DNA of 64,000 nucleotides from assembly GCA_035505215.1 (NCBI GenBank), contig DATJQY010000015.1:160387-224386 (forward strand), given 5' to 3'. This DNA is from Solirubrobacteraceae bacterium. Its GTDB lineage: Bacteria; Actinomycetota; Thermoleophilia; Solirubrobacterales; Solirubrobacteraceae. The notes under the pieces were generated by a model. It did no database searches. It had not been told where the DNA came from and was given only the letters and a program-made list of their open reading frames with translations. Each line of letters starts with the position of its first letter. Within the stretch, counting starts at the first letter, position 1. This document shows, piece by piece, positions 3,404 through 55,215 of this stretch. The translations under genes were made by a program, and so were the position numbers.

Positions 3404-4891
3404 CGCGGCGGGTGGCGGCGGCAGCCCGGCCGGACCCTTGAGGGCGACGACCTGGTCGGTGCCCGGAAGGAGCAGCAGGCCATCGCCGACGGACGGCGTC
3501 GGGAAATGGTTGGCATGGCCGCCGAACGGGATCGCGACGACCTCCTTGCCGTTGGCCGGGTTGAGGCCGTACACGTTGTCGCCTTGAATCGTCCAGACCA
3601 GTCCGTCGGCGATGATCGGTCCGCCCGCGGCGCCGTCGTTATCGGTCCACAGCTGCTTCAGGTACGGAGCCTTCCGCGAAATCCTCATAGCCGTCACGCC
3701 GTTCGGGCACGGTATGTAGACGACCGAGCCCTGCACCGCGTGGCCTCCATCCGGGTCGCCACTGCACACCGAACGGGACGCGACCTCGCCTTCCTCGCCG
3801 CCGAGATGTCCCTGACGCAAGAGATATCCGATGTCGGTCTTGCCGACCTGGAACACGAAACCGTGCACGAGCGCGGGATCCCCGGTCCCCAGGTCGAGGT
3901 CGTCGGCGCTGAGCCGCTGCCAGTCCCGGGGGTAGAAGAGCGACTTCAGGTGCATCGTCGGCGAGAGCTCGAGTACCGCGTCGCTGTCGTCATATGGCTG
4001 ACGGGGGCCGAGGTCGTAGCCGTCGGCGCTCGCCACGTAGACGTTCCCGTGAGGATCGACGACCGGAGAGCTGCCGCCCATCCACACCGCCCCGCGATCG
4101 CGGCCGCTGCCGATCTGGAAGTAGTGGAGCCGTCCTCCCCGCTCTGGAATCGAGACGACGTAGCCGTGGGCCGGGCCGTTGGGGCCAGGGCAGTCGCCCG
4201 TGTTCTGACCGTAGGCGATGACCACGAAACCGTGGTCGAGCGCCAGTCCCGGGCGCTGCAGCTGCGCGAGCTGGTCCTCGCCGGCGTTTGGCATCGCTCG
4301 CTCGTCCAGCTCAACCTTGCCGGTGAACAGATTGAGCCCGAAGAGACGGTGCGACGCTTCGACGCCACGCGAGGCCGACGGGCCGCGGATCAGCGTGTCC
4401 GCGTCGACGAATATCTCGTTGCGCTGCAAGTCGATCACGGGCGTGCCCGTGATCCCGACCTCGGGCGAGATGTCGCCGCAGGGCAGGTCATCGGATGGCA
4501 CAGGGCTCGCCAGGTGGCGTGACCAGAGGATCCGCCCGCTGCGTGCCGCCAGCGCGTAGACGGTGTCGTGCTCGGTCGCCGCGATCACGCGGCCATCGGC
4601 GACGAGCGGCTCGCCGTAGAGCTCGCCGTCAAGGCTCGGGGAGGTCCAAGCGTGCCGGGAAGGCAGCAGCTTGGTCGACGCCGCGTGGACTCCGGTCGCC
4701 TCGGCGTCCCCGTGGTAGGTGGTCCAGTTCGTACCAAAGCCGGAGGCCCGCGACGTGGGCCTCGATTTCGCTGGCCCGGCGCTCGGGCTTCCCGCTTTCG
4801 GCGCCGTCGAGCCGGCCAGGGAAGACCCACAGCCAAAGCAGCCGAGCGACGCGACCGTCATGACAGCGGCCAGTCGAGCCTGTCGCCTCAT
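3398..4891 (-). CDS. Secreted PQQ-binding-like beta-propeller lipoprotein
   Basis: Start reassigned to MRRQARL (4891) ahead of a signal/lipobox (SLGCFGC). Repeated beta-propeller motifs (VYALAARSGRILW, VYGLNPANG). Confidence 0.75.
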   Translation of the reverse strand: MRRQARLAAVMTVASLGCFGCGSSLAGSTAPKAGSPSAGPAKSRPTSRASGFGTNWTTYHGDAEATGVHAASTKLLPSRHAWTSPSLDGELYGEPLVADGRVIAATEHDTVYALAARSGRILWSRHLASPVPSDDLPCGDISPEVGITGTPVIDLQRNEIFVDADTLIRGPSASRGVEASHRLFGLNLFTGKVELDERAMPNAGEDQLAQLQRPGLALDHGFVVIAYGQNTGDCPGPNGPAHGYVVSIPERGGRLHYFQIGSGRDRGAVWMGGSSPVVDPHGNVYVASADGYDLGPRQPYDDSDAVLELSPTMHLKSLFYPRDWQRLSADDLDLGTGDPALVHGFVFQVGKTDIGYLLRQGHLGGEEGEVASRSVCSGDPDGGHAVQGSVVYIPCPNGVTAMRISRKAPYLKQLWTDNDGAAGGPIIADGLVWTIQGDNVYGLNPANGKEVVAIPFGGHANHFPTPSVGDGLLLLPGTDQVVALKGPAGLPPPPAAG

Positions 4892-23132: not shown

Positions 23133-23275
23133 TTATCGGACGGTACTGTCCCCCCAGGACCGATGCCGCGACCCCCTATCGCCCGCAGACTCATCCGCGC
23201 CGTGAGGTGGGCGGATCGCTGGGTGTCTGCCGCCGGGCGCAACTGCTGCGTGGGGCGCTCCCAGGAGCGCGCGCC

Positions 23276-24556
23276 GTGGACCCCCAAAGACAAGCTGACG
23301 CGCTCGCCGCGCTGAGCAGCTTCCCGCTGCTGGAGGCGATCTTCGGGCGCCGGTCGCGGCGCTTTCCGCTCGGCGGCGAGATCCCCGACGGGCCCCTTAC
23401 CTACAAATCCAAGCACGAGCATCTCCCCCTCTCCGAGCTCGAGACGCTCCTGATCCTGGCCGTGATGACGGGCACGACGGGCTGGCACTACGGGATCACG
23501 CGCCACGCCCGCTACGCCCCCGCGCTGGCCAACTACAACGCCGCCGCCGCGGGCCGCACCTTCCCCTCGGCGGCGGGCTTTCACACCTCGGAGCTCTTCT
23601 TCACCGACGACTCCGGGCTCTACTTCCTCCCCACCCGCGACGCCGGGGCGCTCGTCGATCCGGCCACCGAGGAGGTGACGGTGGAGCTGATGCTCGCGCG
23701 CCACCGCGACCGCGTGCAAAAGCTGTCGGGCACGCGCCTCCACCTCCCGCGTGAGGAGCCCTACCTCGAGGGCCACAACACGTGGATCGCCAACGAGCCC
23801 GGCTCGCTGCTCGCGATCCCGATCGCCGACATCGCCCAGCACCACATCGCCAACCTGTGCTTCTTCACCCAGAACGGCTACTGCCTCTACGACGACATCA
23901 ACCAGCGCCCGATCCCCGGAATCGAGGCGTTCGGCGATCTGGTCGACCTCGAGGCGCCGGTCCCGCTGTCCTTCGTCGAGCAGTACTCGCTCACCGAGGC
24001 CTCGGCCGAGCTCATGACCTCCAGCTACAACGGCGCCCTGCTGCTCCAGGCCATGGGGCTTGGCGGATGGTCGTTTGACGGCATCGAGCACATGGCACTG
24101 CTCGGAGCCTCGGGGAACCCCGAGGTCCCGGGCCTCGGCTTCCGCTACGACACCGACGAGCGCTGGGGCACCCCGAACCCCACCGGGCGGACCGACGGAA
24201 CCTTCCACGCCTTCTGCCCGCCCCACTTCCCGACCATGGCCGCCGCGGTCGACGCCTTCTGCGAGCGCAAGTTCGGCCCCGGCGGCCCGTATCACCCGGA
24301 CACGCCGGGGCCGTGGCAGGACTCGCGCCGGGTCCGCGCCGCCGCCGAGCCCCACGACGAACGCTTCCGCGCCTGCGTGACCCTCCAGTGCCAGTACACG
24401 CTCGAGACCTGGGGCAAGTTCCCGGGCACGGTGCCGAGCGTGTGGGTGATGAACTTCCTCCAGGCCCAGCACATCGACCTCGAGTTCTACGACCACCACT
24501 TCCGCCCCGGGGCCTACCTCGACACCCACCGCCGGCACATGGAGGTCTGGCACTAA
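23276..24556 (+). CDS. Nitroreductase/SagB-like fold protein of unknown function
   Basis: RRSRRF, GRTFPSAAG and LLLQAMGLGGW resemble FMN-binding motifs of the nitroreductase superfamily. GTG start follows AGGAG. Confidence 0.55.
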   Translation: MDPQRQADALAALSSFPLLEAIFGRRSRRFPLGGEIPDGPLTYKSKHEHLPLSELETLLILAVMTGTTGWHYGITRHARYAPALANYNAAAAGRTFPSAAGFHTSELFFTDDSGLYFLPTRDAGALVDPATEEVTVELMLARHRDRVQKLSGTRLHLPREEPYLEGHNTWIANEPGSLLAIPIADIAQHHIANLCFFTQNGYCLYDDINQRPIPGIEAFGDLVDLEAPVPLSFVEQYSLTEASAELMTSSYNGALLLQAMGLGGWSFDGIEHMALLGASGNPEVPGLGFRYDTDERWGTPNPTGRTDGTFHAFCPPHFPTMAAAVDAFCERKFGPGGPYHPDTPGPWQDSRRVRAAAEPHDERFRACVTLQCQYTLETWGKFPGTVPSVWVMNFLQAQHIDLEFYDHHFRPGAYLDTHRRHMEVWH

Positions 24557-24557
24557 A

Positions 24558-24662
24558 AAAGTGCGCCTCGTGTGCGGCCCGCGATCGAGACGCACGTTTG
24601 GGTCCTATAGAGCACACAACGTGCGCCCGAATCCCCACCCGTGAGCGAGACGCACGTTTTTT
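24558..24662. repeat. Two REP-like hairpin units in 60-bp tandem
   Basis: GTGCGCC at 24561 and 24621; CGAGACGCACGTTT at 24586 and 24646. Each unit has complementary arms. Confidence 0.75.
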
Positions 24663-24669
24663 CAGGGAA

Positions 24670-24741
24670 GGCCGGGCCGCATGCGGCCCGGCCCCGCCCG
24701 GTGCATGCACCGGGCGGCGGGGGCGCGCATGCGCGCCCCCG
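24670..24741. repeat. Array of three abutting perfect 24-bp palindromes centred on GCATGC
   Basis: GGCCGGGCCGCATGCGGCCCGGCC | CCGCCCGGTGCATGCACCGGGCGG | CGGGGGCGCGCATGCGCGCCCCCG, checked base by base. Confidence 0.95.
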
Positions 24742-24756
24742 AACACCACGATGCGC

Positions 24757-26346
24757 TCAGACCGTGTCGAGCCCCTGGTTGATCATCCGGCCCACGGTCT
24801 CGTACTTGGCCCGGTCGTTGCGCTTGAGATAGAAGGCGTAGCCGAGCCCACCGAGGAAGATCAGCAGGTCGGCCCAGCACAGCCACTTGGCGTAGCTGTA
24901 GCCCGAGCCCAGGAAGCTCAGGTGCTTGATGGCCAGGTAGAGGACGATGGCCTGGCTGACCAACGAGAGCAACGGCGCGCTGATCGTCGTCCACCAGTGG
25001 TGCTCCTCCTTGTGGTGGGTGCGGAAGTAGTTCCAGATGGCCAGCGAGACCAGCGCCTGGATGGCCAGGATCGAGACCACGCCCATGACGGCCATCAGGC
25101 CGTAGACCTGGAGATAGCCGACCGAGTCCGCCGAGCCGAGCTTCGGGTCGACGGCCGCGAACAGCGCGAAGGCGAGCAGGATCAGCGCCGCGATGACCGA
25201 CTGCGTCGTCGAGGCGATGTGGGCGCTCTTCCACTTGTGGTGGGTCCGGCCCAGCGCCGCGGGCAGGATCCGCTCGCGCCCGAGCGAGTACATGTAGCGC
25301 GCCGTCGTGTTGTGGAAGGCCATCCCGCAGGCGAACGAGCCCGTGATGATGAACCAGCTCAGGCACCCCTGCAGGAACGCGCCGGCGAAGTGATGCGCGG
25401 GCAGGAAGAAGAAGTTCGCGGCGTTGTTCTGGGCCACCGACGCCGCGGCGTCAACCGAGTGGTAGCCGCTGAGGCCGGCCCACGAGGTGATCGTGTAGAA
25501 GATCATGAGCCCGATCACCGAGATGTACAGCGCCCGGGGGACGTTCTTTCTGGGGTTTCTCGACTCCTCCCCGTAGTTGGGGGCCATCTCCCAGCCGACC
25601 CAGGACCAGAAGGCGAAGAAGAGGCCGATCGACCAGGCTCCGGCCGCGATCGTGGCGCCGGCGACGTGGCCGCCAGGATAGCTCTTGAACGCGTTGGCCG
25701 GGTTGATGGCGGCGGCGCTGACGTTATGGGAGGCCTGGGTGAAGATGACGATGTCGAACACCAACAGGGTGAGGACCTCGCACAGCAGCGCGATCCCGAG
25801 GATGCGGGCCGAGATCCGGACGTCGAAGTAGGTCAGGGCCGCGATCAGCGCGATCATGAAGAACCCGCACCAGTACCACTGGATGTTGACTCCGTAGTGG
25901 TGGAGTTTCAGCTGGGCGAAGTAGGCGAACCCGCCCACCAGCGAGACCTCAAACACGCTGTAGGCGGACACCATCAGCAACCCGCTGGCCATCCCCAGCT
26001 CGCGGTTCAGGCCGTGGCTGATGAAGCTGTAGAAGCCGCCCGCCGTGGTCACCTTGCGCGACATGGCGACATAGCCCACCCCGAAGATGGTGAGCACGAC
26101 CCCGGCCACGATGAAGCCGGCGGGCGTCCCGAGCCCGTTCCCGTAGCCAACCGAGATCGGCGTGTTGAACAGCATGGCCGAGATCGGCGCCGATCCCGTG
26201 ACGGTGAGAAACAGCACACCGACCAGACCCACCGCCCCGGCGCGCAGCTTGTGGATGTCCTCGCGCTGGCCAACGTCGATGCTCTCCACCACGGGGAGCA
26301 TCCCCTCGTGGTGCTCTCCCACCCCGCCTGGACTGATTGTGCTCAC
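24757..26346 (-). CDS. APC-family amino acid/amine permease
   Basis: About 12 TM segments, GSAP in TM1, GGFYSFISHGL, YGEESRNPRKNVPRA. RBS GGAGGAG before the GTG start. Confidence 0.92.
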   Translation of the reverse strand: MSTISPGGVGEHHEGMLPVVESIDVGQREDIHKLRAGAVGLVGVLFLTVTGSAPISAMLFNTPISVGYGNGLGTPAGFIVAGVVLTIFGVGYVAMSRKVTTAGGFYSFISHGLNRELGMASGLLMVSAYSVFEVSLVGGFAYFAQLKLHHYGVNIQWYWCGFFMIALIAALTYFDVRISARILGIALLCEVLTLLVFDIVIFTQASHNVSAAAINPANAFKSYPGGHVAGATIAAGAWSIGLFFAFWSWVGWEMAPNYGEESRNPRKNVPRALYISVIGLMIFYTITSWAGLSGYHSVDAAASVAQNNAANFFFLPAHHFAGAFLQGCLSWFIITGSFACGMAFHNTTARYMYSLGRERILPAALGRTHHKWKSAHIASTTQSVIAALILLAFALFAAVDPKLGSADSVGYLQVYGLMAVMGVVSILAIQALVSLAIWNYFRTHHKEEHHWWTTISAPLLSLVSQAIVLYLAIKHLSFLGSGYSYAKWLCWADLLIFLGGLGYAFYLKRNDRAKYETVGRMINQGLDTV

Positions 26347-55143: not shown

Positions 55144-55215
55144 CCCACCCGCGCATGCGCGGGTGGCCCGGCCGGTGCATGCACCGGCCGGAGGGGCGGC
55201 GCATGCGCCGCCCCT
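55144..55215. repeat. Second array of three 24-bp-period palindromes centred on GCATGC
   Basis: (C)CCACCCGCGCATGCGCGGGTGG(C) | CCGGCCGGTGCATGCACCGGCCGG | AGGGGCGGCGCATGCGCCGCCCCT. Confidence 0.95.

What the first reader, a model, noticed from the sequence alone, without database searches (positions are those of the whole stretch)
24670..24741. Three abutting perfect 24-bp palindromes centred on GCATGC (locus A)
Seen: three loop-less palindromes of exactly 24 bp, end to end, between convergent genes. Arms differ between units, yet each is perfectly self-complementary, and the centres are exactly 24 bp apart (CGCATGCG, TGCATGCA, CGCATGCG). A second array 30 kb away keeps the period, the core order and the central CCGGTGCATGCACCGG while the outer arms differ. 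Inference: selection or a copying mechanism keeps symmetry, spacing and core rather than sequence. Options are a new REP-like family, a phased protein-binding or cruciform site, or a triple-hairpin bidirectional terminator/RNA-stabilising element. This fits no family I recognise.
Basis: partly seen in the sequence, partly recalled or inferred. Interest (0 to 1): 0.85.

Follow-up and report, generated by a model that had tools for sequence, protein, structure and literature searches.

The report
Dispersed, spaced CATG palindrome-array repeat
The three back-to-back perfect palindromes are one copy of an undescribed ~100-bp hairpin-array repeat that is scattered through the genomes of a group of uncultured soil actinobacteria, is gained and lost between species, and, unlike known bacterial repeats, was never found closer than about 15 kb to another copy.

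Summary
Window 24670-24741 is three abutting perfect 24-bp palindromes with GCATGC centres 24 bp apart, and 55144-55215 is a second copy. It is not a locus-specific device. The genome (an uncultured Solirubrobacteraceae MAG) holds 6 complete arrays, 4 arrays cut by contig ends and 1 solo unit. In relatives of the same genus a strict triple-CATG pattern finds 0 to 61 arrays.

The element is polar: an AT-rich flank, a GGCC-type unit, a CCGG-type unit, a CSGG-type unit, then RAC and a further AT-rich flank, about 95-100 bp in all. Orthologous sites in other species are often empty (11-53 nt). One copy sits in frame inside a gene. No target duplication, no Y1/RAYT transposase and no U-tract were found. 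Stems are 99.7% Watson-Crick, with changes on both arms.

The new result is spacing. Among about 110 neighbour gaps in five genomes, none is below 15 kb. In two dense genomes the mean gap is 34.6-34.7 kb (CV 0.32-0.41, against about 1 for random placement). Random insertion with a ~20-kb exclusion zone reproduces this.

Best reading: a new REP/BIME-like, copy-propagated hairpin-array element. The enzyme that spreads it and the cause of the exclusion are unknown.

The parts
24670..24693 (+). Locus A, unit A (GGCC-type): GGCCGGGCCGCATGCGGCCCGGCC, a perfect 24-bp palindrome
   Evidence: The same unit recurs at C12:203532 and C33:159618 of this genome and in other species.
24694..24717 (+). Locus A, unit B (CCGG-type, TGCATGCA centre): CCGCCCGGTGCATGCACCGGGCGG
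24718..24741 (+). Locus A, unit C (CGGG-type): CGGGGGCGCGCATGCGCGCCCCCG
   Evidence: The same unit occurs in G015, G018, G351 and others.
24742..24745 (+). 3' tag AACA that follows the C unit in nearly all oriented copies (consensus R-A/T-C-A)
   Evidence: Position counts over 25 G204 copies, G351 copies and the G000 copies.
55144..55215 (+). Locus B, the second copy of the element: CCCACCCGCGCATGCGCGGGTGGC / CCGGCCGGTGCATGCACCGGCCGG / AGGGGCGGCGCATGCGCCGCCCCT. It fills 72 of the 76 nt between the HxlR-family gene (+, ends 55141) and the MlaD-domain gene (-, ends 55218).
24556..24662 (+). Not part of the element: two copies, 60 bp apart, of a different dispersed repeat (AAACGTGCG..~20 nt..CGAGACGCACGTTTTTT). 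This is a hairpin followed by a T-run, i.e. terminator-like, lying between the + gene stop and the array.
23207..24556 (+). Upstream convergent gene (449 aa, no Pfam match)
   Evidence: Its orthologues flank the array site in other species.
24757..26346 (-). Convergent APC-family amino-acid permease gene. Its stop lies 15 nt from the array.

Best explanation
Locus A, and locus B 30.5 kb away, are two copies of a previously undescribed, polar, non-coding repeat element of Solirubrobacteraceae. The element has a GC-rich core of (usually) three abutting perfect palindromes, each centred on CATG. The unit types occur in fixed order (GGCC-type, CCGG-type, CSGG-type). The core is followed by RAC and bracketed by about 10-14 nt of AT-rich DNA, giving about 95-100 bp in all.

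Shown:
- It is a dispersed family whose copies are gained, lost and decay at individual sites between species.
- It is locally dispensable: orthologous junctions are often empty.
- It tolerates in-frame insertion into a gene.
- Copies within one genome resemble each other more than they resemble copies in other species.
- Every unit stays an exact Watson-Crick palindrome while the arm sequence changes on both sides.
- Copies keep a minimum distance along the chromosome.

Inferred:
- The element spreads by copying, as REP/BIME or MITE-like selfish DNA does, through a single-strand or cruciform hairpin intermediate. The enzyme is not an IS200/RAYT Y1 transposase and remains unidentified. The CATG hairpin tip and the RAC tag are the likely recognition or cleavage features.
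- Exact symmetry is probably kept at the DNA level. Candidates are hairpin-templated correction (quasipalindrome template switching) or a requirement for perfect hairpins on either strand. RNA-level selection is less likely, because G-T wobble is essentially absent.
- The ~20-kb exclusion between copies reflects either a target-immunity-like property of the insertion machinery or a fitness cost or instability of two copies within one supercoil-domain-sized stretch.
- Any effect on the 3' ends of the flanking mRNAs (a stable triple hairpin of about -64 to -79 kcal/mol) is a by-product, not the reason the element exists.
For: Family and copy number:
- This genome has 6 full arrays, 4 arrays at contig ends and 1 solo unit.
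- 189 of 346 species genomes of the genus match the pattern CATG-N20-CATG-N20-CATG, at 0-61 matches per genome. The reversed-pattern control gives mostly 0-1.

Polarity and flanks.

Empty orthologous sites: G000 has 15-52 nt where G204 has arrays. G204 has 11 and 40 nt where G351 and G244 have arrays.

Sites shared and diverged with arms changed on both sides: the locus A junction in L042, L018 and L023, and the C24/C29 junction in three species.

Decay: L023 keeps a single unit, and G244 keeps a remnant with a mutated centre.

In-frame intragenic copy: a FAD-oxidoreductase gene in G204. An ORF also reads through the array at G000 C20.

Symmetry: 1166 of 1170 stem cells are Watson-Crick, 1 is G-T, and 27 of 30 pair positions have 2 or more pair types.

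Spacing:
- G204: 34 arrays in 1.2 Mb, gaps 15.2-63.5 kb, mean 34.6 kb, CV 0.316. The null gives CV 0.97, with a lowest value of 0.55 in 20,000 simulations.
- G351: 30 gaps, mean 34.7 kb, CV 0.41, minimum 15.5 kb.
- G244, G309 and G194: minimum gaps 20, 19 and 31 kb.
- Random insertion with a 20-22-kb exclusion reproduces the CV and the largest gap.

No match in Rfam or in the searched literature.
Against: - No mobilising enzyme was found. Pfam Y1_Tnp is absent from 19 genomes, 10 of them array-bearing.
- There is no target-site duplication and no gene flanked by arrays of the REPtron kind.
- No near-identical IS copies occur in 1.2 Mb of the richest genome.
- Long persistence of arrays at some junctions with exact symmetry and the non-random spacing could instead mean a host function.
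- The covariation sample was chosen by near-perfect palindromy, so the 99.7% figure is partly circular.
- My gene calls in relatives are home-made (GC3-based) and cover only 79% of the DNA, so the context fractions are approximate.
Confidence: 0.72

Rival explanations
1. Chromosome-architecture element. The arrays are host-selected landmarks that must be spread at intervals of tens of kb. Candidates are cruciform-prone or protein-bound sites acting as supercoil-domain boundaries, strong gyrase or topoisomerase sites, or anchors for a nucleoid protein. The AT-rich flanks would help extrusion, and the CATG centre would suit a two-fold-symmetric enzyme that cuts with a 4-base stagger. This reading overlaps with the best explanation: a domesticated repeat could be both.
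For: - Spacing is far more even than random in two species that share few sites (mean 34.6 and 34.7 kb).
- No gap under 15 kb was seen in five genomes.
- Symmetry is at the DNA level, with almost no G-T.
- AT-rich flanks stand out in a 69% GC genome.
- From knowledge, not tested here: E. coli BIME-2 binds gyrase and REP325 has been tied to nucleoid condensation.
Against: - Density varies from 0 to about 100 arrays per genome within one genus, and the window's own genome has only about 10 in 3.76 Mb, with contigs of 270-480 kb that have none. An essential architectural role is therefore hard to sustain.
- A plain exclusion-plus-saturation model fits without any ruler.
- Arrays occur inside genes.
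- No binding protein is known.
Confidence: 0.2
2. Bidirectional transcription terminator or mRNA 3'-end stabiliser. The three stable hairpins exist to stop or protect transcripts from both convergent genes.
For: - Most copies start 1-20 nt after a stop codon.
- Both strands fold into three 10-bp GC hairpins with CAUG loops, at -77 and -79 kcal/mol (z about -5.7) for locus A and -64 and -65 kcal/mol for locus B.
- A need to work on both strands would explain strictly Watson-Crick stems.
Against: - No T-tract follows the hairpins in either direction. The conserved arrangement is T-rich, then hairpins, then A-rich, the inverse of a terminator.
- The organism has canonical hairpin-plus-T6 elements, and two of them precede the array at locus A.
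- Orthologous junctions with the same genes are empty and only 11-50 nt long in other species.
- Some copies lie between divergent genes, next to start codons or inside ORFs.
- Orientation relative to the upstream gene is random, 10 against 8.
- This reading explains neither the fixed polarity nor the exclusion spacing.
Confidence: 0.1
3. Recombination site. Each array is a res-like target of three dimer-sized subsites with a central AT, used by a site-specific recombinase. Pairs within one supercoil domain would be recombined and lost, which would create the exclusion zone.
For: - The three-subsite polar layout and the central AT dinucleotide.
- The exclusion range of about 15-20 kb is similar to supercoil-domain sizes measured with resolvase assays in Salmonella (from knowledge, not tested here).
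Against: - Arm sequences differ between units and copies, so a single sequence-specific recombinase is unlikely.
- Among the seven closest pairs in G204 (orientations read off by hand), 4 are inverted and 3 direct, so there is no orientation bias.
- Arrays are not enriched at synteny breakpoints: 8 of 23 against 31 of 129, p = 0.30.
- No candidate recombinase was sought or found.
Confidence: 0.05
4. Assembly or sequencing artefact.
For: Arrays break this short-read assembly: four contig ends stop inside arrays, and two contig ends (one of them in an array) carry poly-G. Reads could not be inspected.
Against: - The same element is found in hundreds of MAGs from different projects and technologies.
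- It occurs at orthologous junctions in independent assemblies.
- It shows species-specific unit types and decay products.
Confidence: 0.01

Closest known systems
REP sequences and their BIME clusters; REPINs (Enterobacteria, Pseudomonas, Stenotrophomonas)
   Same: Short GC-rich hairpin-forming palindromes in tens to hundreds of copies. They are mostly extragenic and lie just after genes. They cluster head to tail into composite elements built from a few unit types, differ between related species, and have been proposed as selfish non-autonomous DNA (PMC3116915, PMC3733652).
   Different: - REPs are imperfect palindromes with a loop and carry a GTAG (or CGTC) tag. These units are loop-less exact palindromes with a CATG centre and a 3' RAC tag after the last unit.
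- GTAG REPs travel with RAYT genes, which are flanked by REPs (REPtrons). No Y1 transposase is present here.
- REPIN doublets are reported to be randomly distributed in extragenic space (PMC3116915). These arrays exclude each other over about 15-20 kb.
CGTC-tagged REPs and Rickettsia palindromic elements (RPE)
   Same: A palindromic repeat family without a dedicated transposase that can sit in frame inside protein-coding genes (PMC3733652).
   Different: Different tag and sequence, a different phylum, single hairpins rather than arrays of exact palindromes, and no reported spacing rule.
[quoted passage not shown]
   Same: About 100 bp, non-coding, dispersed, with presence/absence between relatives and AT-rich insertion surroundings.
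   Different: MITEs have terminal inverted repeats derived from an IS and target-site duplications. Here there are no TIRs in that sense, no TSD and no parent IS.
Rho-independent (intrinsic) terminators, including tandem or U-less hairpin terminators described in actinobacteria
   Same: Stable GC hairpins directly after stop codons, sometimes between convergent genes.
   Different: No U-tract, fixed unit length, centre and polarity, shared sequence types across loci, dispensable at orthologous sites, and found inside genes and between divergent genes.
Transposon target immunity (Mu, Tn7, Tn3) and quasipalindrome template-switch correction (from knowledge; analogies for two properties only)
   Same: Target immunity: an existing copy discourages a new copy over kilobases to tens of kilobases, which with continued insertion gives even spacing. 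Template switching: it converts an imperfect palindrome into a perfect one, so a change in one arm is copied to the other.
   Different: No DDE transposase, target-selector ATPase or transposon ends are evident here. Neither mechanism was tested.

Membership tests
REP / BIME / REPIN | Short GC-rich extragenic palindromes in many dispersed copies, clustered into composite arrays | tested here: met
REP / BIME / REPIN | Conserved GTAG (or CGTC) tetranucleotide at one end of the stem (PMC3733652) | tested here: not met
   Units start with GGCC, CCGG or CSGG. The only conserved tag is RAC(A) after the last unit.
REP / BIME / REPIN | Associated RAYT (Y1 HUH transposase, Pfam PF01797), typically flanked by REPs | tested here: not met
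   0 of 19 genus genomes match, including 10 with arrays, while the control genomes match. No two arrays lie closer than 15 kb, so no gene is bracketed.
REP / BIME / REPIN | Random placement of the replicative unit in extragenic space (PMC3116915) | tested here: not met
   CV of gaps 0.32-0.41, no gap under 15 kb, P < 5e-5.
MITE | Terminal inverted repeats plus target-site duplication, with a related autonomous IS | tested here: not met
   Same-copy flank similarity equals other-copy similarity (longest common substring 3.96 against 4.15). No multicopy IS in 1.2 Mb of G204.
Intrinsic terminator | GC-rich hairpin followed directly by a U-tract | tested here: not met
   The scanner finds none at either locus. 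The oriented consensus has the T-rich tract before the hairpins and the A-rich tract after them.
Intrinsic terminator | Transcript 3' ends map to the element | not testable with these tools
Rfam RNA families | Match to any curated covariance model | tested here: not met
   No match at E <= 1 in window 23500-26000.
CATG/GCATGC methylation-linked motif (Dam/NlaIII-type D12 methyltransferase) | Presence of a D12-class N6-adenine methyltransferase in array-bearing genomes; depletion or excess of the site genome-wide | tested here: not met
   PF02086 is absent from all 10 array-bearing genomes tested and present in 1 genome without arrays. CATG occurs 9793 times against about 10838 expected, and GCATGC 769 times against about 1282. 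Other methyltransferase classes were not tested.
Rickettsia-type intragenic palindromic elements (behaviour only) | In-frame insertion that leaves the host ORF open | tested here: met
   In the G204 FAD-oxidoreductase...AKVIDRT[24 aa from the array]ITINTDRGEIR... aligns with the uninterrupted G000 sequence ...AKVEGRSAFAVHTDRGDIQ....

The most novel reading that the evidence does not exclude
The arrays obey a chromosomal spacing rule: an exclusion zone of about 20 kb which, at saturation, gives one array per about 35 kb in species that share few sites. This would be the first REP-like element that either carries its own target immunity without any recognisable transposon machinery, or has been recruited as a regularly spaced topological or architectural landmark of the nucleoid. 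Examples of the latter are cruciform or gyrase sites marking supercoil-domain-sized units. In either case the element reads out, or sets, a physical length scale of the bacterial chromosome.
Probability: 0.3. Interest if true: 0.9.

Novelty: new variant of a known kind. Interest (0 to 1): 0.74.

Why it matters
1. It adds a REP/BIME-like family from a barely studied, uncultured soil actinobacterial lineage. The family lacks the RAYT partner and the GTAG/CGTC tags that define the known super-families, so it bears on the open question of how such repeats spread.
2. Hundreds of exact palindromes whose arms change only in pairs, with almost no G-T, form a clean natural data set for DNA-level hairpin-templated symmetrisation as opposed to RNA-structure selection.
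3. The exclusion zone is not a known property of REP-type repeats. If it reflects supercoil-domain size, target immunity or recombinational instability, it offers a sequence-based handle on chromosome-scale organisation in bacteria that cannot yet be grown.
4. On the practical side, the arrays break short-read assemblies and can be mis-annotated as terminators or as peptide insertions in genes.

Tried and rejected
- Rfam scan of the locus: no match.
- Consensus terminator and promoter scans at both loci: none found.
- RAYT/IS200 Y1 transposase (PF01797): absent in 19 genomes.
- Dam/NlaIII-type D12 methyltransferase (PF02086): absent in array-rich genomes.
- Target-site duplication or flank inverted repeats: no signal above the other-copy control.
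- Orientation bias: none relative to the upstream gene (10 against 8). Only a weak trend relative to the replication direction (23 against 11).
- Enrichment at synteny breakpoints between G204 and this genome: not significant (odds ratio 1.7, p = 0.30).
- Parent IS or multicopy transposase in 1.2 Mb of G204: none.
- A fixed 35-kb ruler: not needed, because hard-core exclusion of 20-22 kb plus near-saturation fits. A 15-kb hard core alone does not fit (CV 0.51, P = 0.003).
- Presence outside the family-level clade: apparent hits in other families and classes are coding or direct tandem repeats, not arrays. Only one other genus of the same family (G549) has true arrays.
- Literature searches for a description of the family or of spaced REP-like repeats: nothing found.

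Full report
**1. The observation**

Window 24670-24741 reads GGCCGGGCCGCATGCGGCCCGGCC | CCGCCCGGTGCATGCACCGGGCGG | CGGGGGCGCGCATGCGCGCCCCCG. These are three exact, loop-less 24-bp palindromes, end to end, with centres 24 bp apart. The array lies between the stop of a 449-aa + strand gene (24556) and the stop of an APC permease on the - strand (24757).

A second array at 55144-55215 has the same period. It shares the central 16-mer CCGGTGCATGCACCGG, which occurs twice in the window against 0 expected in 100 shuffles. It fills 72 of the 76 nt between an HxlR-family gene and an MlaD-domain gene.

**2. It is a family, not a local device**

The window is C15:160387-224386 of a 3.76-Mb, 68.8% GC, 34-contig assembly.
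- Of 55 perfect palindromes in the genome with arms of 10 or more, 22 are centred on GCATGC, and arm length 12 is strongly over-represented.
- The 769 GCATGC sites are bimodal: 19 are perfect 12/12 palindromes, while the bulk score 3-8.
- A spacing of exactly 24 between GCATGC sites occurs 13 times.
- Complete 72-bp arrays lie at C12:203473, C15:185056 (locus A), C15:215530 (locus B), C15:279002, C20:149226 and C26:11977.
- Four contig ends (C16, C24, C29, C33) stop inside arrays, and one solo unit lies at C17:263996. The ends of C24 and C29 share a middle unit and probably join through one array. This was later borne out by synteny.
- No flank is shared between copies beyond short AT-rich stretches.

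**3. Organism and distribution**

Orthologues of the permease come from MAGs labelled Solirubrobacteraceae or Solirubrobacterales.
- The pattern CATG-N20-CATG-N20-CATG occurs in 189 of 346 species genomes of the same GTDB genus, at 0 to 61 hits per genome. The reversed-pattern control gives mostly 0-1.
- With a looser spacing, one 3.4-Mb genome gives 125 hits.
- In 301 genomes across the class, hits outside the genus are almost all coding or direct-repeat matches. One other genus of the same family (G549) has true arrays.
- The invariant centre is CATG. GCATGC, ACATGT and TCATGA all occur.
- Unit number is 2-5 (27 of 34 arrays have three) and unit length is 22-28 bp in relatives.

**4. Anatomy**

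When 25 copies from the array-rich relative G204 are oriented by unit type, a polar element appears. It has about 14 nt of AT-rich sequence ending in T's, then a GGCC-type unit, a CCGG-type unit and a C[C/G]GG-type unit, then R-A/T-C-A and about 8-10 nt of further AT-rich sequence.
- G351, whose units are different, shows the same order and the same AAC after the last unit.
- Most copies of this genome fit as well. Locus A is oriented on the + strand, with AACA at 24742-24745. Locus B is less typical: TAC follows its last unit.
- A filled/empty comparison (G244 against G204) shows the inserted block directly after a TAA stop: about 12 nt AT-rich, 71 nt of palindromes, then about 12 nt AT-rich.
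- The intragenic copy in G204 brings the same flanks.
- I found no target-site duplication.

**5. Gain, loss and decay**

G204:C2 (a 2.17-Mb contig, of which I fetched 1.2 Mb) is largely syntenic with this genome.
- At most orthologous junctions this genome has no array and only 15-52 nt between the same genes.
- Two sites are filled in both: locus A (G204 352428) and the C29/C24 junction (G204 1141384).
- The C29/C24 junction is also filled in G351. There the C unit is identical to that of this genome, the B unit differs by one paired change and the A unit by several paired changes. G204 carries its own consensus units at this site.
- At the locus A junction, L042 and L018 have triple arrays with different arms, L023 keeps one unit plus a stump, L039 has an array split by about 75 nt, and other species have ordinary hairpins.
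- G244 and G204 share 9 of 11 sites in a colinear 350 kb. Each also has sites the other lacks, and one G244 site holds a remnant unit with a mutated centre.

The arrays are therefore dispensable for the flanking genes. They turn over, and within a genome they resemble each other more than they resemble their orthologues.

**6. Context**

In G204, roughly 25 of 34 arrays begin 1-20 nt after a stop codon, in convergent or, more often, co-directional settings. Three lie between divergent genes and about four lie inside ORFs (my gene calls are GC3-based and approximate).
- In this genome, C15:279002 lies between the divergent starts of a zinc-ribbon gene and glycyl-tRNA synthetase. These two gene identities are my reading of the translated starts, not a tool result.
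- The C29 copy lies about 13 nt upstream of a start codon.
- One G204 copy is an in-frame insertion in a FAD-dependent oxidoreductase that is uninterrupted here.
- The C20 copy of this genome is read through by the upstream carboxyltransferase ORF.
- Orientation relative to the upstream gene is random (10 against 8). Relative to replication direction there is only a weak trend (23 against 11).

**7. Structure and symmetry**

Either strand of locus A folds as three 10-bp hairpins with CAUG loops, at -76.9 and -79.0 kcal/mol (z = -5.7 and -5.6). Locus B gives -63.9 and -65.0 kcal/mol.

Over 39 distinct arrays from four species, 1166 of 1170 stem positions are Watson-Crick, only one is G-T, and 27 of 30 pair positions show two or more pair types. 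The sample was selected for near-perfect units, so the percentage is inflated. The near-absence of G-T among variable pairs still argues for symmetry kept at the DNA level, or on both strands, rather than for selection on one RNA.

**8. Not a canonical terminator, not a RAYT-borne REP**
- No T-tract follows the hairpins, and the consensus is T-rich before and A-rich after.
- The organism has a separate dispersed hairpin-plus-T6 repeat, AAACGTGCG..CGAGACGCACGTTTTTT, at 7 or more loci. Two copies lie between the + gene and the array at locus A.
- Pfam Y1_Tnp is absent from 19 genomes of the genus, ten of them with arrays, while it is found in control genomes.
- A D12 methyltransferase is absent too.
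- The 1.2 Mb of G204 has no near-identical IS copies.
- Rfam has no match.
- I found no description in the searchable literature.
- Published REP super-families carry GTAG or CGTC tags (PMC3733652), and REPINs are reported as randomly placed in extragenic space (PMC3116915).

**9. The spacing rule (new here)**

- In G204:C2, 34 arrays in 1.2 Mb are separated by 15.2-63.5 kb, with mean 34.6 kb, sd 10.9 kb and CV 0.316.
- Choosing 34 sites at random among called gene 3' ends, or uniformly, gives a mean CV of 0.97 and never below 0.53 in 25,000 trials. No trial reached the observed minimum or maximum gap.
- G351 shares few sites with G204 and has different units. It gives 30 gaps with mean 34.7 kb, CV 0.41 and minimum 15.5 kb.
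- G244, G309 and G194 have minimum gaps of 20, 19 and 31 kb.
- In this genome the three C15 arrays are 30.5 and 63.5 kb apart.
- Random sequential insertion with a hard exclusion of 20-22 kb reproduces both the CV and the largest gap. A 15-kb hard core alone does not (CV 0.51, P = 0.003).

A soft exclusion zone of about 20 kb plus near-saturation is therefore sufficient, and no separate ruler is required. Arrays are not enriched at synteny breakpoints.

**10. Interpretation**

The weight of evidence puts locus A in a new REP/BIME-like family of copy-propagated hairpin arrays. The features that matter are dispersal, polarity with conserved ends, presence/absence at orthologous sites, genome-specific homogeneity, decay products and in-frame intragenic copies.

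Three things remain unknown.
- The enzyme that spreads the element. The CATG tip and the RAC tag are the obvious recognition candidates.
- The process that keeps each unit exactly symmetric. Template switching across the hairpin is the simplest known mechanism, but it is an inference.
- The cause of the exclusion zone. Candidates are target immunity, instability or cost of two copies within a supercoil-domain-sized distance, or a host role in chromosome organisation.

The terminator/stabiliser idea survives only as a side effect. The architectural idea is weakened by the 0 to about 100-fold variation in density within one genus and by this genome's own sparse set.

**11. Relation to earlier notes of this scan**

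Several follow-ups on other genomes had already described CATG-centred palindrome arrays in Solirubrobacterales as an undescribed REP/BIME-like family found after stop codons and in frame in genes. My results agree, and I re-derived those points independently here. No note mentions polarity, the RAC tag and AT-rich flanks, or the spacing rule.

**12. Limits**
- No reads or RNA data could be used.
- Gene calls in relatives are approximate.
- Positions in G351, G309, G194 and G244 come from pattern matches that miss irregular arrays. This can only inflate the gaps; it cannot create the absence of short ones.
- The spacing analysis rests on five genomes, two of which (G204 and G244) share most sites.

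Noticed in passing
window 24556-24662 (also C6:168159, C9:80636/80725, C10:72090/72180, C12:32499/32559, C15:78181, C34:96832/96922 of the genome): A second dispersed repeat, AAACGTGCG-(about 20 nt)-CGAGACGCACGTTTTTT. It is a hairpin followed by a T-run, usually in pairs 60 or 90 bp apart in direct or inverted orientation, so it looks like a family of terminators. A related motif (AAAACGTCRCACTCG) sits at the orthologous junction in another species (L030).
   Followed up: partly
genome contigs C16, C24, C29, C33 (3' ends); C27 and C33 ends: The short-read assembly breaks inside palindrome arrays at four contig ends. Two contig ends finish in poly-G, which looks like a two-colour sequencer artefact. 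Synteny with G204 and G351 indicates that C29 and C24 join through one array.
   Followed up: partly
genome C20:149226-149297 (outside the window): The array is read through by the - strand ORF of a carboxyltransferase (oxaloacetate decarboxylase alpha / pyruvate carboxylase B-like) gene. This gives it a 24-aa array-encoded stretch plus a 34-aa tail that overlaps the next gene's start.
   Followed up: partly
G204:C2:1125650-1125721 (loci L058-L117 concatenated): An array with its AT-rich flanks is inserted in frame in a FAD-dependent oxidoreductase gene. It replaces 9 codons by 32, and the ORF stays open.
   Followed up: yes
G204:C2:32184-32316 and L039 about 4600-4760: Two arrays are split between the first and second unit by an unrelated 75-85-nt insert, so there may be a preferred break or insertion point inside the element.
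   Followed up: no
G204:C2 1-1,200,000: No near-identical multicopy sequence (IS) of 150 bp or more was found; all internal repeats are 72-90% identical paralogues. The palindrome arrays are the dominant dispersed repeat of this small genome.
   Followed up: partly
The genome search tallies: Array-rich genomes are mostly the small ones of the genus (2.5-4 Mb). Most genomes of 5-10 Mb have 0-5 matches, with a few at 10-16.
   Followed up: no
G057:C170:11745, G075:C73:25456, G638:C12:222164: Direct tandem repeats with a 24-bp period that contain CATG, probably coding. They match the triple-CATG pattern but are unrelated to the palindrome arrays.
   Followed up: no
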